Program-made: the position numbers and the translations under genes
Source: Chloroflexota bacterium
Lineage (GTDB): Bacteria > Chloroflexota > Dehalococcoidia > Lucifugimonadales > UBA3495
Direction of reading: 5' to 3'
DNA: 64,000 bases
NCBI GenBank assembly: GCA_009840135.1
Contig: VXOH01000036.1
Coordinates: forward strand, 1,720 to 65,719
Shown: one piece after another, positions 16,831 to 49,399 of the stretch
How positions within the stretch are numbered: the stretch's first letter is position 1
Layout: the number at the start of each line of letters is the position of its first letter
The notes under the pieces: generated by a model
Told to the model about the DNA's origin: nothing
The model's input: the letters and a program-made list of their open reading frames with translations, nothing else
The model's database searches: none

Positions 16831-16879
16831 AGGAATAAGAAAGAGGTTCCTGTCCTACAGGAACCTCTTTCTTATTCCT
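16831..16879. terminator. 23-bp perfect palindrome (bidirectional terminator candidate) between convergent mutL and the small TAT-signal ORF
   Basis: AGGAATAAGAAAGAGGTTCCTGT (16831-16853), 3-nt loop CCT, ACAGGAACCTCTTTCTTATTCCT (16857-16879). Every one of the 23 positions pairs. No flanking T-tract. Confidence 0.5.
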
Positions 16880-44700: not shown

Positions 44701-44946
44701 ATGGAAACCACCGTCTTGACCGCAAGGGTGGCTTGGCAGGACGGTCGGTATGTGGCAGTGATTGAGGGCCTGGACCTGGAGGCCGCCGGCGAGACTGTCG
44801 AGGACGCCCAAAACGAGTTAATCCAGTTGATGAGAAACTGGATTGAAATTCAGGATGGCAGGAGTCTGCTGGAAGAGACCCTGGCAATGGCGGGATTCCC
44901 GGGCGTGCAAGAGGACACGGAACTGCAACTGGAGTTCGTTGACTGA
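44701..44946 (+). CDS. HicB-fold (UPF0150-like) small protein, paralog 1, embedded in the nuo operon
   Basis: 81 aa. The ATG is 2 nt after the nuoC TAG. DGRYVAVIEGLDLEAAGETVEDAQNELIQLMRNWIE matches the HicB-like N-terminal pattern (G.Y.A..P.L....G.T.EEA......A....). Confidence 0.65.
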   Translation: METTVLTARVAWQDGRYVAVIEGLDLEAAGETVEDAQNELIQLMRNWIEIQDGRSLLEETLAMAGFPGVQEDTELQLEFVD

Positions 44947-45012: not shown

Positions 45013-45282
45013 TTGGACAAAATCGTTTACCAGGTTGAGGAATCGCGAGAGGGCAGGTATTTTCTGGCTTATTGCCCCGAGCTGGTGATAACCGGATTCG
45101 GCGATACAGCGGACGAAGCGAAGACTTCCTTACGGAAGGAGATTTCCACTTACCTGGAGGATTGCGAATCCATGGGCATACTGGACGAGGTCCTGATTGA
45201 TGCCGGCTTTTACGACAACGACGAAGTCTGGATGAGCAGTCTTGTAACCCCACCGAGAGAGCCAAAGATAGAGTTTCTGTAG
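45013..45282 (+). CDS. HicB-fold (UPF0150-like) small protein, paralog 2
   Basis: 89 aa, TTG start 5 nt after AGGA. EGRYFLAYCPELVITGFGDTADEAKTSLRKEISTYLED. Shares GRY, G.T..(D/E)A, LL/ILDE.L..AGF and a terminal .EF. with paralog 1. Confidence 0.7.
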   Translation: MDKIVYQVEESREGRYFLAYCPELVITGFGDTADEAKTSLRKEISTYLEDCESMGILDEVLIDAGFYDNDEVWMSSLVTPPREPKIEFL

Positions 45283-47725: not shown

Positions 47726-48298
47726 ATGCTGAACAGCGTTAAGGGGATGATGTTAACCCTGGCTTCCACGTTTACGGGACTGCGGAAGCCCGTTACCCGG
47801 CAGTATCCGACCGTGCCCACGCCGGTACAGCCCAGGTTTATGGGTTTTCCGGCCCTGACCTGGGACGATGGCGTGGGTGAGCCCTACTGCACCGGTTGCA
47901 TGGTATGCATCCGCAATTGCCCCACCCAATGCATGTCCGCCAGCATGATGGACAACCCTCTTAACGAGGAGGGCAAGAGTTCACGCCGCAAGATAGTGGA
48001 CTACTTCGAAATTAACCTTAATAGGTGTATACTCTGCGGGATTTGCGTGGAGGTGTGCAATTTCGACGCCATCGTGATGAGCCACGAGCATGAAATGAGC
48101 ACTTATCAGCGCAACGGCGACCGGGTGGACTTGCCGGCCCTATTGGACATCGGTAAGAAGTACCAGGTCAACACGGCATGGATTCCGCCCACGGTTTTGG
48201 CCAAGGCCAAGAAGGAGGCGGAAGACGCAGCCAAAGCCGCCGCCGCGGCCGAAGCATCCTCGGGTGAAACGGCGGCAGCCGGCCAGGAAGCTACCTGA
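47726..48298 (+). CDS. nuoI: NADH-quinone oxidoreductase subunit I (2x[4Fe-4S]) with an Ala/Glu-rich C-terminal tail
   Basis: 190 aa. CTGCMVCIRNCP and CILCGICVEVCNFDAI. Ends with TGA. Confidence 0.9.
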   Translation: MLNSVKGMMLTLASTFTGLRKPVTRQYPTVPTPVQPRFMGFPALTWDDGVGEPYCTGCMVCIRNCPTQCMSASMMDNPLNEEGKSSRRKIVDYFEINLNRCILCGICVEVCNFDAIVMSHEHEMSTYQRNGDRVDLPALLDIGKKYQVNTAWIPPTVLAKAKKEAEDAAKAAAAAEASSGETAAAGQEAT

Positions 48299-48670
48299 GG
48301 GCTGGAATCCAGCCGGAATTCTCATCAAGTTGGAACGAAACGAACCCAGGGGATTCCACCATTCCCAAGAGAGAAGACGAACGTAATTTAAGACTTTCCG
48401 GCAAACATCCGGCATATTGCACCTGCCAGAATTGCACTGACACTTTTCTGAAGAAGCGAAAGATCAAACCAGGCCGAAGGAGTTCATCCACATCCGCCGG
48501 CACCCCTGAAAGGGTGAAGGTCCATCCGTCCAATTGCCAGTGCGCTACCTGCAAGCTATTGGCATCGGTAGGAGATCTTCCTCCCTTGCCCAGGGGGAAG
48601 CCCGGATGGTTATTCGGGAAGGGGTCCAAATAGGTCATTAACATTGGTTTGACGGTTGATTCGGAAGTCC

Positions 48671-48742
48671 GTTCGTGGTGAGCTTGTCGAACCATGAATC
48701 GTCCGCCTCAGGCGGATTCGACAAGCTCAGGGTGAGCGGAAC
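48671..48742. repeat. Nested palindromic REP/MITE-like element inside the nuoI-nuoJ spacer
   Basis: A perfect 12-bp inverted repeat, GAGCTTGTCGAA (48680-48691) / TTCGACAAGCTC (48717-48728), encloses the inner hairpin TCCGCC-TCA-GGCGGA (48702-48716). It is flanked by GGTGAGC direct repeats (48677-48683 and 48731-48737). Confidence 0.6.
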
Positions 48743-48910
48743 ATAACCCTACACTTTAACGTTGCTGGACTACCGGGCTAAATCGGAGAAGGGCGTTATA
48801 AGCGCATCTATGCAAAGCTATTATTGTTGGTCAGGTTTTTCATGCCGTGCCTTGGCGGTCCGCCTGGCACATAAGGCGCTTTCGGAAACCCCTGAAGAGG
48901 TTTACCGATA

Positions 48911-49399
48911 GTGTCCTGGTTCCTGTTCATAGTCCTTTCCATTCTCACCCTGGGTGGTGGACTGGGAGTGGTGGTTACCCGGAACGTGGTACATGCCGCT
49001 CTCTTTCTCCTGGTTTCCCTCGTTGCAGTAGCTGGTCTGTACTTGATACTTTTCGCCGAGTTTCTGGCGCTGGTCCAGGTGCTGATCTATGGCGGCGCCA
49101 TCATCATAGTGCTACTGTTCGCCATAATGCTGACCCGCAGCGCCGAATATCCCCGGATTTCTGACAACAGGCAATGGCCCCTGGCAGCGGTGGCGGCGGC
49201 AGCGGTGGGTGTCGTTTTGGGCGCGGCCTTCCTGGATAACAGCTTGCCCCAGACCGAGCCCAACAGCCCCACCTTTGGCGACCTGGCCAATTCCCTGTTC
49301 ACGACCTGGGCCATTCCATTTGAAGTAGCCTCTCTGGTTCTGCTGGTAGCGCTCATCGGGGCCATAATCATCGCCCGCACCGGGGAGGACAACCGCTGA
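48911..49399 (+). CDS. nuoJ: NADH-quinone oxidoreductase subunit J
   Basis: 162 aa, GTG start. VVTRNVVHAALFLL and VQVLIYGGAI. Confidence 0.9.
   Translation: MSWFLFIVLSILTLGGGLGVVVTRNVVHAALFLLVSLVAVAGLYLILFAEFLALVQVLIYGGAIIIVLLFAIMLTRSAEYPRISDNRQWPLAAVAAAAVGVVLGAAFLDNSLPQTEPNSPTFGDLANSLFTTWAIPFEVASLVLLVALIGAIIIARTGEDNR

What the first reader, a model, noticed from the sequence alone, without database searches (positions are those of the whole stretch)
48299..48910. 612-bp non-coding insertion splitting nuoI from nuoJ, carrying a nested palindromic REP/MITE-like element
**What the sequence shows.**
- All other nuo junctions in this operon are 78 nt or less, and mostly 0-25 nt. The nuoI-nuoJ gap is 612 bp and looks AT-richer by eye.
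- It contains a conspicuous element at 48671-48742.
- That element has a perfect 12-bp inverted repeat, GAGCTTGTCGAA / TTCGACAAGCTC.
- The repeat encloses a second hairpin (TCCGCC-TCA-GGCGGA) and is flanked by GGTGAGC direct repeats.
- Its arms translate to VSLSNHE and FDKLRVSG.
- From memory, I recognise these as peptides that recur in spurious 'hypothetical proteins' across many metagenomic bacteria. That would imply a widespread, largely unnamed palindromic repeat family.
- The only long ORF here (minus strand, 134 aa, starting MVRQAHHER) begins inside that hairpin and is probably an artefact.

**Why it matters.** An insertion inside an essential respiratory operon must either be transcribed through, acting as a structured RNA spacer, or supply an internal promoter or processing site.
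Basis: partly seen in the sequence, partly recalled or inferred. Interest (0 to 1): 0.55.

Follow-up and report, generated by a model that had tools for sequence, protein, structure and literature searches.

The report
Missed small gene plus REP-like hairpin
The 612-bp "non-coding insertion" between nuoI and nuoJ is mostly a conserved small cysteine-rich protein gene that gene callers miss because it starts with ATT. Only about 73 bp of the gap is an inserted palindromic repeat, which belongs to a hairpin family found in at least ten bacterial phyla.

Summary
The gap (48299-48910) and the palindrome (48668-48740) are real. The reading "non-coding insertion" is wrong.

**Small gene.**
- Positions 48361-48633 (+) encode a 90-aa protein with two HPxxCxCxxC motifs.
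- The same gene lies between nuoI and nuoJ in every related Chloroflexota operon fetched. It is intact in nine lineages, frameshifted in L127 and degraded in L259.
- It is under purifying selection: differences by codon position are 103/106/396.
- Homologues that start with ATG all begin MP[KR]REDE. Here, and in nine other lineages, that codon is ATT, preceded by a Shine-Dalgarno-like purine run. This explains why no gene was called.

**Palindrome.**
- It is a doublet of two inverted units from a dispersed repeat family.
- Each unit has an almost invariant 13-mer, TGAGCYTGTCGAA, closed by a covarying 3-4 bp stem and preceded by a lineage-specific 5' tag.
- Exact doublets occur in at least 120 species genomes from about 11 phyla. 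The family has no Rfam model and no hit in the searchable literature.
- Within the close relatives it is present in the window and L127, decayed in L129, absent from seven other lineages, and at a different site in L124-126. It therefore behaves as a dispensable, REP/REPIN-like insertion.
- It has no T-run, so it is not an intrinsic terminator. Its mobilising enzyme is unknown.

The parts
47726..48298 (+). nuoI (190 aa, 2x[4Fe-4S] subunit with an Ala/Lys-rich C-terminal tail). This is the left border of the gap.
   Evidence: Pfam Fer4 families. The identical protein is called on the source contig. There are 1463 homologues, named NADH-quinone oxidoreductase subunit I in Chloroflexota, Dehalococcoidia and SAR202 records.
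48348..48353 (+). Shine-Dalgarno-like AGGGGA, 7 nt upstream of the ATT start codon.
   Evidence: Read directly from the sequence. An equivalent purine-rich run lies at the same distance in every relative.
48361..48633 (+). Small CDS of 90 codons with an ATT start and a TAG stop: (M/I)PKREDERN...GKGSK. It is not called by gene finders.
   Evidence: - Seven homologues with E = 8e-24 to 8e-33, and 11 cluster representatives with E <= 1e-10.
- Between nuoI and nuoJ in L123-L126, L129-L132, L257 and L258; frameshifted in L127 and degraded in L259.
- Differences by codon position are 103/106/396.
- ATG-bearing homologues begin MP[KR]REDE.
- The start codon is ATT in 10 lineages. L124-L126 and L132 have in-frame stops 30-33 nt upstream with no canonical start in between.
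48406..48435 (+). First HPxxCxCxxC motif (HPAYCTCQNC, residues 16-25).
   Evidence: Invariant columns H16 P17 A18 Y19 C20 T21 C22 C25 in alignment A2. It is a direct DNA repeat with the second motif (D2 and D6).
48523..48552 (+). Second HPxxCxCxxC motif (HPSNCQCATC, residues 55-64).
   Evidence: Invariant columns H55 P56 C59 C61 T63 C64 in A2.
48668..48740 (.). REP/REPIN-like doublet of two inverted hairpin units.
- Unit A: tag TCCGTTCG (48668-48675), stem TGG/CCA, 13-mer at 48679-48691.
- Unit B (minus orientation): tag TCCGCTCA (48733-48740), 13-mer at 48717-48729.
- Inner hairpin at 48702-48716.
   Evidence: - Structure.
- Family anatomy.
- Identical in L127, decayed in L129, and absent from L123, L124, L130, L131 and L257-L259.
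- No further copy in the 64-kb window.
48741..48910 (+). Spacer before nuoJ. It contains a 33-codon ATG ORF (48810-48911) whose TAG stop overlaps the GTG start of nuoJ.
   Evidence: - 86% identical to L129, similar to the flanking genes.
- The fold is not unusual (z = -0.8).
- An ATG-started short ORF ends 0-3 nt before the nuoJ start in 10 of 11 lineages, but the peptide is not conserved.
48911..49399 (+). nuoJ (162 aa, GTG start). This is the right border of the gap.
   Evidence: Pfam Oxidored_q3, E = 6e-37. The start GTGTCCTGGTT is conserved in the relatives.

Best explanation
The nuoI-nuoJ interval has three parts.

**1. An ancestral small gene (48361-48633).** Its product is a basic 90-aa protein with two HPxxCxCxxC motifs (6 Cys and 2 His, probably metal-binding). 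Translation most likely starts at a conserved AUU codon behind a Shine-Dalgarno sequence, which would keep output low or IF3-sensitive. That start also hides the gene from annotation pipelines. Because the gene travels with the 11-subunit (NuoEFG-less) complex I operon of Dehalococcoidia-like Chloroflexota, it is most likely an accessory subunit or assembly factor of that enzyme.

**2. A 73-bp insertion 34 nt downstream of the gene's stop codon.** It consists of two inverted units of a dispersed hairpin-repeat family. Each unit has a 5' tag, a covarying 3-4 bp stem and an invariant 13-nt loop, TGAGCYTGTCGAA. The family behaves like REP/REPIN elements. It is extragenic and multi-copy, and it occurs as single units, tandem arrays and inverted doublets. 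It is present or absent between relatives and decays after insertion. The element is transcribed through as part of the nuo mRNA and forms a strong hairpin with no U-tract. At most it modulates mRNA decay or processing between the peripheral-arm and membrane-arm genes. It is not required for the operon.

**3. A leader region for nuoJ.** It carries a short ORF that ends at the nuoJ start codon.

**Shown:** coding status, synteny, the position of the ATT codon, the anatomy and distribution of the family, and presence/absence of the insertion among relatives. **Inferred:** AUU initiation in vivo, metal binding, a role in complex I, mobility through a single-stranded hairpin recognised by an unidentified (possibly HUH/RAYT-like) enzyme, and any effect on the mRNA.
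For: **Gene**
- Homologues with E down to 8e-33, and 11 representatives with E <= 1e-10.
- Always between nuoI and nuoJ.
- Window against L129: 12 synonymous and 1 non-synonymous codon changes in the first 38 codons. Overall differences by codon position are 103/106/396.
- Conservation starts exactly at I/M-P-K/R-R-E-D-E. The 62 nt upstream are the least conserved segment, 73% identical to L129.
- ATG-bearing homologues start MP[KR]REDE.
- The first codon is ATT in all nine intact loci tabulated, while the internal Ile codon varies between ATC and ATA. ATT makes up only 47% of Ile codons in the nuo genes.
- L124 and L132 have in-frame stops upstream with no canonical start in between.

**Element**
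- Structure.
- At least 120 genomes in about 11 phyla, including cultured isolates.
- 13-mer invariant except at position 6.
- The three stem pairs are Watson-Crick in 96/93/89% of units, against about 60/36/31% with shuffled partners.
- 55 extra units in 854 kb of flanks, where about 0.4 would be expected (the expectation is my arithmetic).
- Single units, tandem arrays and doublets all occur.
- Identical in L127, truncated in L129, absent from seven other lineages.
- Another doublet lies upstream of nuoA in L124-126.
- No T-run and no promoter-like site.
Against: - There is no expression, proteomic or ribosome-profiling evidence for the small protein or for AUU initiation.
- In L127 the ORF carries a frameshift, and in L259 it is degraded. 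The gene is therefore dispensable in some lineages, or those assemblies contain errors.
- The structure prediction was uninformative (pLDDT 53), and no known domain matches.
- For the element, no transposase was found. There was no Y1/HUH-like ORF and no recurrent neighbouring gene family in 240 loci.
- No precise empty site or target-site duplication could be defined, because the spacers of relatives that lack the element do not align.
- Only one doublet lies in the 64-kb window, so the copy number in the source genome is unknown.
- Near-identity of the 13-mer across phyla is unlike classical lineage-specific REPs.
Confidence: 0.8

Rival explanations
1. One reading: the whole 612 bp is a non-coding insertion that acts as a structured RNA spacer, internal promoter or processing site.
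For: - No gene is called in the interval on the source contig or in the closest relatives.
- GC is lower than in the flanking genes.
- The interval contains a strong hairpin.
Against: - A conserved, syntenic ORF under purifying selection fills 273 bp.
- Relatives without the hairpin still have I-J intervals of 394-669 bp.
- No sigma-70-like promoter was found.
- There is no Rfam match.
Confidence: 0.04
2. The palindrome is a selected cis-regulatory RNA element of this operon. It would act as a stabiliser, an RNase processing site or an attenuator that sets the ratio of nuoA-I to nuoJ-N expression, as REPs do in the E. coli malE-malF spacer (my knowledge).
For: - It lies 34 nt after a stop codon inside a polycistronic operon, folds at -42 kcal/mol and is 100% identical in L127.
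- Family members favour co-directional and convergent spacers over divergent ones.
- A related hairpin forms part of a sequenced Aggregatibacter sRNA, RF02901.
Against: - It is absent from seven related lineages with the same operon.
- In L129 the right arm has lost 8-9 nt and the inner hairpin has changed without compensation.
- Units show no orientation bias relative to transcription, 26 sense against 18 antisense.
Confidence: 0.15
3. The element is a classical MITE: 13-bp terminal inverted repeats (TGAGCTTGTCGAA) around a short core, mobilised in trans by a DDE transposase of a parent IS.
For: It has perfect 13-bp inverted termini that start with TG. It is short, non-coding and present or absent among relatives.
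Against: - There is no target-site duplication: TGG lies on one side and GGG on the other.
- Single 13-mers with their own stem outnumber doublets in an unbiased sample, with 89 clamped units and only 13 with a partner.
- Head-to-tail tandem arrays exist.
- The bases flanking each 13-mer covary as a stem, which a terminal inverted repeat model does not predict.
- No IS with these ends was seen.
Confidence: 0.07
4. The small ORF in this window is a dead gene: a start-less pseudogene kept only by recent common descent.
For: - There is no ATG, GTG or TTG before residue 52.
- L127 carries a frameshift and L259 is degraded.
- The window copy lacks three C-terminal residues (LKR) that are present in relatives.
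Against: - ATT occupies the same position in 10 lineages that differ at many synonymous sites.
- The ORF is open and constrained in lineages only 57-73% identical in protein sequence.
- A Shine-Dalgarno-like motif is retained.
Confidence: 0.07
5. The hairpin is an intrinsic (rho-independent) terminator that splits the operon into two transcription units.
For: It is a GC-rich stem-loop downstream of a stop codon.
Against: - No T-run follows the stem on either strand.
- The terminator scan did not report it.
- No promoter-like site lies between it and nuoJ.
Confidence: 0.03

Closest known systems
REP / REPIN elements mobilised by RAYT (REP-associated tyrosine transposases) - Bertels & Rainey 2011 (PMC3116915); Bertels et al. 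2017 (PMC5581495); Messing et al. 2012 (PMC3479197)
   Same: - Short extragenic palindromes with many copies per genome.
- Inverted doublets that fold into a long hairpin.
- A short conserved 5' tag outside the stem. A few Sphingomonad copies even carry CCGTAG.
- Located downstream of genes and inside operons.
   Different: - In classical REPs the stem is conserved and the loop is small, and each family is specific to one lineage and inherited vertically.
- Here the stem is short and variable, a 13-nt loop is almost invariant, and the same 13-mer occurs in about 11 phyla.
- No RAYT gene could be linked to the family.
REP as an mRNA stabiliser in the E. coli malE-malF intercistronic region (Newbury et al. 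1987; my knowledge)
   Same: A repeat hairpin without a U-tract, placed between cistrons of one operon, that could protect upstream mRNA from 3' exonucleases.
   Different: No expression data exist here. The element is absent or decayed in close relatives, so any such effect is not conserved.
Rfam RF02901 AaHKsRNA41 (Aggregatibacter sRNA 41)
   Same: Positions 14-89 of the model form a long hairpin whose arms read CUGAgCUUGcCGAAG / UUCGgCAAGcUCAG. This is nearly the same 13-mer doublet.
   Different: The score is 19.8 bits against a gathering score of 97. Only the hairpin matches, the rest of the 187-nt model does not, and the 13-mer differs at one position (C for U).
Hairpin origins and ends recognised by HUH endonucleases, with a conserved loop and a variable stem, such as the nonanucleotide stem-loops of CRESS-DNA and geminivirus origins (my knowledge)
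   Same: The architecture is the same: an invariant sequence presented in the loop of a hairpin whose stem covaries.
   Different: This is purely an analogy. No Rep or HUH gene is associated, the elements are chromosomal and dispersed, and no cleavage site is known.
AUU-initiated genes: infC (IF3) and pcnB of E. coli (my knowledge)
   Same: A conserved AUU codon at the position of Met1, preceded by a Shine-Dalgarno sequence. This implies weak, IF3-discriminated initiation.
   Different: The protein is unrelated. Initiation at AUU is inferred here from comparative data only.
Extra ferredoxin-docking subunits of cyanobacterial NDH-1 (NdhS/V/O), and the open question of the electron donor of 11-subunit complex I-like enzymes (PMC11238625)
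   Same: Small, basic, operon-linked proteins that accompany a complex I lacking NuoEFG. The gene sits immediately after nuoI, whose product lies at the electron-input side.
   Different: There is no sequence or predicted structural similarity and no biochemical evidence. An AUU start suggests sub-stoichiometric expression.

Membership tests
REP / REPIN (RAYT-dependent) | Short imperfect palindrome located in extragenic space | tested here: met
   The 73-nt palindrome lies between a stop codon (48633) and the nuoJ leader. In other genomes, family members flank ordinary genes.
REP / REPIN (RAYT-dependent) | Two REPs in inverted orientation separated by a short spacer, folding into one hairpin (REPIN) | tested here: met
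   Units lie at 48668-48700 and 48701-48740, and the doublet folds into a single long hairpin. In an unbiased sample, however, single units are the commoner form.
REP / REPIN (RAYT-dependent) | High copy number within one genome | tested here: inconclusive
   One doublet lies in the 64-kb window, and the rest of the source genome is not available. In other carriers there are 55 extra units in 854 kb of flanks, and some loci have 7-9 units.
REP / REPIN (RAYT-dependent) | Conserved GTAG (or similar tetranucleotide) at the 5' end of each REP | tested here: not met
   The tags here are CCGTTCG and CCGCTCA. Other lineages use CCTCAT or TGTCA, and only a few Sphingomonad copies have CCGTAG.
REP / REPIN (RAYT-dependent) | A single-copy RAYT gene flanked by the same REPs in the genome | not testable with these tools
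   Whole carrier genomes could not be scanned. No Y1/HUH-like ORF was found in 240 fetched loci, using phmmer with recalled query sequences and a motif regex.
REP / REPIN (RAYT-dependent) | Family sequence specific to a lineage, with vertical inheritance | tested here: not met
   The same 13-mer occurs in about 11 phyla and in viral contigs.
MITE (DDE-transposon derivative) | Terminal inverted repeats with a flanking target-site duplication | tested here: not met
   13-bp inverted termini are present, but the flanks differ (TGG and GGG). Single units and tandem arrays do not fit this model.
Intrinsic terminator | GC-rich hairpin followed directly by a U-tract | tested here: not met
   GGAACATAACCC follows the stem, and the terminator scan does not report it.
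Any Rfam 15 family | Score at or above the family's gathering threshold | tested here: not met
   There are no matches in the window at gathering score. The best sub-threshold match is RF02901, at 19.8 bits against 97.
Any described protein family (small CDS) | Significant match to Pfam, NCBIfam or a solved structure | tested here: not met
   There is no Pfam hit at E <= 0.1, no NCBIfam hit at E <= 1, and the best PDB profile hit has E = 0.41.
Genuine protein-coding gene (small CDS) | Conserved ORF, synteny, and an excess of synonymous change | tested here: met
AUU-initiated gene | AUU at the position homologous to Met1, no usable canonical start upstream, and a Shine-Dalgarno sequence at the proper spacing | tested here: met
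   Comparative evidence only. Initiation itself was not tested.

The most novel reading that the evidence does not exclude
Two linked novelties remain possible.

1. The ATT-started HPxxCxCxxC protein, together with the two small HicB-like ORFs between nuoC and nuoD, could be previously unrecognised subunits or assembly factors. They might form or regulate the missing electron-input side of the 11-subunit complex I of Chloroflexota.
2. The 13-mer-loop hairpin could be the substrate of a single, still unidentified and horizontally spreading enzyme family, for example an HUH or RAYT-like nuclease that reads the loop. That would make it the first REP-type system shared across phyla.
Probability: 0.3. 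Interest if true: 0.75.

Novelty: new variant of a known kind. Interest (0 to 1): 0.5.

Why it matters
**For genome annotation.** A gene that starts with ATT is invisible to standard callers. In at least six lineages fetched here (the window, L127, L129 and L257-L259) it is recorded as a 450-620 bp "intergenic" hole in an essential operon. In L124-126 it was called only from a downstream start, which truncates the conserved N-terminus.

**For bioenergetics.** The electron donor and any extra subunits of complex I-like enzymes that lack NuoEFG are an open question (PMC11238625). An operon-embedded, cysteine-rich, probably metal-binding small protein encoded directly after nuoI is a concrete candidate to test.

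**For mobile-DNA biology.** This repeat family reverses the usual REP logic. Its 13-nt loop is invariant and its stem covaries. It keeps the same sequence from Chloroflexota to Bacteroidota and Proteobacteria. That pattern implies a conserved reader that has not been identified.

**For users of protein databases.** The family also explains a large class of spurious "hypothetical proteins" containing motifs such as ...SLSNHE..., ...FDKLRVSG... and ...RQAHHER....

Tried and rejected
- **Rfam.** A scan at gathering score and a permissive scan gave only a sub-threshold partial match.
- **Literature.** Full-text searches for the 12-mers and for six typical spurious peptides found only unrelated primers or nothing.
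- **Associated gene.** All-against-all BLAST of 2558 ORFs from the 120 genome loci gave no recurrent family; the largest cluster spans 7 loci. phmmer with recalled IS200 and RAYT sequences gave no hits. An HUH...Y motif regex over 240 loci gave none. Two loci where copies bracket a gene turned out to bracket ordinary genes that do not look like transposases (my reading of the translations).
- **Plasmid BLAST.** It gave 10 records (Moraxella and Comamonas), with nothing annotated under the matches.
- **Empty site.** Three further close relatives were fetched (L257-L259). Their spacers do not align with the window's, so no insertion boundaries or duplication could be defined.
- **Structure of the small protein.** AlphaFold2 gave pLDDT 53, so no fold search was run.
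- **Metagenome scan with the protein alignment.** It returned only 5 loci.
- **Spacer 48741-48910 as a structured RNA.** Its fold is not better than shuffles (z = -0.8).
- **G·T against A·C asymmetry in stems as a strand test.** I rejected this as uninformative. The fixed T residues of the tag produce the asymmetry by themselves.
- **Orientation relative to genes.** This used a crude home-made gene caller and showed no clear bias.
Full report
**1. Observation.**
- The window comes from a metagenome scaffold (ENA ERZ23491722, scaffold_346). The closest named NuoI homologues are from Chloroflexota, Dehalococcoidia and SAR202 MAGs.
- The operon is the 11-subunit type and has no nuoEFG. The gene order is nuoA, B, C, two small ORFs, D, H, I, J, K, L, M, N.
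- nuoI ends at 48298 and nuoJ starts at 48911, so the 612-bp gap is real. Every other junction is 78 nt or less, and GC in the gap is 0.52 against 0.57.
It has 13-bp perfect arms at 48679-48691 and 48717-48729, inside 24-nt arms, with an inner hairpin at 48702-48716.
- It folds at -42.3 kcal/mol as RNA (z = -4.2) and at -24 kcal/mol as DNA (z = -5.9).
- It is the only copy in the 64-kb window.

**2. The gap is mostly a gene.**
- One plus-strand frame is open from inside nuoI to 48633. It reads ...IPKREDERNLRLSGKHPAYCTCQNC...KVHPSNCQCATCKLL...GKGSK*.
- A search of 5.8 billion proteins returned seven homologues, with E from 8e-24 to 8e-33 and 57-73% identity.
- Every homologue whose contig I fetched (P0002, P0003, P0004 and P0007) lies between nuoI and nuoJ on the same strand. 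These are L123-L126, L130 and L131.
- The same holds for a GenBank MAG contig, L132, and for further relatives in which no gene had been called: L129, L257 and L258.
- In the first 38 codons, pairwise differences between seven lineages fall 103, 106 and 396 times on codon positions 1, 2 and 3. The window against L129 shows 12 synonymous and 1 non-synonymous codon changes.
- A profile search of 1.84 billion cluster representatives found 25 proteins at E <= 1e-3 and 11 at E <= 1e-10.
- The minus-strand 134-aa ORF is antisense to this gene and is broken by stops in L129.

**3. The start codon.**
- The ORF has no ATG, GTG or TTG before residue 52, which is why gene finders skipped it.
- Homologues with a canonical start all begin M-P-K/R-R-E-D-E.
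- In the window, L127, L129, L123, L124-126, L130, L131, L132, L257 and L258 that codon is ATT. It is GTG in L133 and L134, and ATC only in the degraded copy of L259.
- L124-126 and L132 have an in-frame stop 30-33 nt upstream with no canonical start in between.
- Sequence conservation begins at this codon. The 62 nt before it are the least conserved segment of the region, 73% identical to L129.
- A purine-rich Shine-Dalgarno-like run lies 5-10 nt upstream in every lineage. In the window it is AGGGGA at 48348-48353.
- Ile codons in the window's nuo genes are only 47% ATT, and the internal conserved Ile of the small gene varies between ATC and ATA. The first codon is nevertheless ATT in all nine intact loci tabulated in that comparison.
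- I therefore infer initiation at AUU, as in E. coli infC and pcnB (my knowledge). This has not been tested experimentally.

**4. The protein.**
- It has two copies of H-P-x-x-C-x-C-x-x-C, a basic linker and a C-terminal G-L-L-K-R-L-F-G-K motif.
- Nothing matches in Pfam, NCBIfam or PDB sequences. The AlphaFold2 model is poor, with pLDDT 53.
- The HP(P/A)YCTCxxC module also occurs as an N-terminal module or as a repeat in some longer proteins.
- From its constant place in the operon, I infer an accessory or assembly role for the 11-subunit enzyme. The electron donor and possible extra subunits of that enzyme remain open questions (PMC11238625).
- In L127 the ORF has a frameshift, and in L259 it is degraded. 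It is therefore not indispensable everywhere, or those assemblies contain errors.

**5. The palindrome is a doublet of a dispersed hairpin unit.**
- The hits cover Chloroflexota, Actinomycetota, Pseudomonadota (Alpha-, Beta- and Gammaproteobacteria), a "delta proteobacterium" MAG, Cyanobacteriota, Bacteroidota, Ignavibacterium, Zixibacteria, Acidobacteriota, Calditrichaceae, Elusimicrobia and Treponema. They include cultured isolates and complete genomes.
- Reading the flanks showed that the conserved sequence is not a stem. Each 13-mer, TGAGCYTGTCGAA, is bracketed by 3-4 complementary bases that differ from copy to copy (CCC/GGG, GGC/GCC, TGG/CCA, TCC/GGA and others). It is preceded by a 7-nt tag: CCGTTCG or CCGCTCA in most lineages, CCTCAT in several Alphaproteobacteria and TGTCA in Bacteroidota.
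- Across 271 distinct units, the three closing pairs are Watson-Crick in 96, 93 and 89%. With shuffled partners the figures are about 60, 36 and 31%, and they fall sharply when the register is shifted.
- The 13-mer is invariant except at position 6, which is T or C. Shuffled 13-mers gave 1-4 hits against 257.
- Inside the loop, U1-A13, G2·A12, A3·G11 and G4-C10 could extend the helix with tandem sheared G·A pairs. This is my inference.
- The 8-kb flanks hold 55 units beyond the two per locus required by the search pattern. About 0.4 would be expected by chance, which is my arithmetic. Some loci hold 7-9 units.
- In a sample of viral contigs chosen with a single-unit pattern, 89 of 141 matches have the closing pairs, against about 6% expected by chance. 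Only 13 have an inverted partner, so single units are the basic form.
- Tandem arrays also occur.
- Units sit mainly in co-directional and convergent spacers. They show no clear orientation bias, 26 sense against 18 antisense, although the gene calling was crude.

**6. Behaviour of the element in this lineage.**
- It is 100% identical in L127, whose NuoI is 97% identical.
- In L129 the left 13-mer has one change, the inner hairpin differs, and the right 13-mer has lost its first bases.
- It is absent from L123, L124, L130, L131 and L257-L259, whose spacers between the small gene and nuoJ are 69-187 nt in the four measured (L123, L124, L130 and L131).
- L124-126 carry a different doublet of the same family upstream of nuoA.
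- This pattern of insertion, inheritance and decay fits a dispensable repeat rather than a conserved regulatory part of the operon.
- The element has no T-run and was not reported as a terminator. No promoter-like site was found in the gap.

**7. Comparison with known systems.**
- The closest described kind is REP/REPIN (PMC3116915, PMC5581495, PMC3479197). Extragenic location, the inverted doublet and the 5' tag agree with it.
- Several features disagree. There is no GTAG tag, the logic is reversed (variable stem, conserved large loop), and the same sequence occurs across phyla. An associated RAYT could not be tested, and none lies in the fetched loci.
- A MITE model fails because there is no target-site duplication and because single and tandem units exist.
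- Rfam has no family for it. The best partial match is the hairpin of Aggregatibacter sRNA 41, whose arms carry nearly the same 13-mer.
- Neither the sequence nor its typical spurious peptides appear in the searchable literature. Supplements and subscription journals were not covered.

**8. Verdict.**
- The element is an ordinary kind of object: a repeat hairpin parked in an operon spacer. It belongs, however, to an unusually widespread and apparently undescribed family.
- The more useful result is the hidden ATT-started gene.
- I rate interest at 0.5 and novelty as a new variant of a known kind.

Noticed in passing
window 44701-44946 and 45013-45282 (+): Two small ORFs (81 and 89 aa) lie between nuoC and nuoD. 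They are strongly conserved in L123, L124, L129 and L131 and have no Pfam or NCBIfam match. Their sequences (…YLAYCPELVITGFGDTADEAK…) look HicB/UPF0150-like to me. They may be further lineage-specific partners of complex I.
   Followed up: partly
window 48810-48911 (+): A 33-codon ATG ORF has a TAG stop that overlaps the GTG start of nuoJ. An ATG-started ORF of 19-33 codons ends 0-3 nt before the nuoJ start in 10 of 11 lineages, but the peptides are not conserved. This suggests translational coupling through a leader ORF.
   Followed up: partly
L131 3794-4000 (between nuoI and the small gene): A different insertion of about 200 nt translates to …SPLPLDGGGLGWG… and …FPHQGGRG…. I recognise these from memory as another common source of spurious peptides. 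It may be a second cross-lineage repeat family occupying the same interval.
   Followed up: no
L127 about 4780 and L259 3129-3400: The small gene has a 1-nt frameshift in a C-run in L127. In the GenBank MAG GCA_028875055.1 (L259) it is degraded, with an early stop and loss of the His/Cys motif. This could be real gene loss or assembly error.
   Followed up: partly
window 16831-16879: A perfect 23-bp inverted repeat with a 3-nt loop (AGGAATAAGAAAGAGGTTCCTGT / ACAGGAACCTCTTTCTTATTCCT) is the strongest local palindrome in the window. It is unrelated in sequence to the element studied.
   Followed up: no
window 48190-48298 (3' end of nuoI): NuoI carries an Ala/Lys/Glu-rich, low-complexity C-terminal tail (…AKAKKEAEDAAKAAAAAEASSGETAAAGQEAT). 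Its length and sequence vary between relatives.
   Followed up: no
P0134, P0141, P0146, P0148: The module …(E/D)ER…G.HP(P/A)(Y/A)CTCxxC(T/V)(D/N)R(F/R)L… recurs in other proteins. It appears four times in one 318-aa protein, and at the N-terminus of proteins that have predicted membrane segments. This suggests an independent small metal-binding module that Pfam does not describe.
   Followed up: partly
L072 5300-5830, L004 4450-6600, L096 1-110: Some carrier genomes hold head-to-tail arrays of the 13-mer unit (periods of 22-72 nt) and other tandem repeats in the same spacers.
   Followed up: no
L124 7258-7542 and L130 3626-3763: In some relatives an additional small ORF (94 aa or 45 aa) is called between nuoK and nuoL. 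The window has a 75-nt spacer at that position.
   Followed up: no
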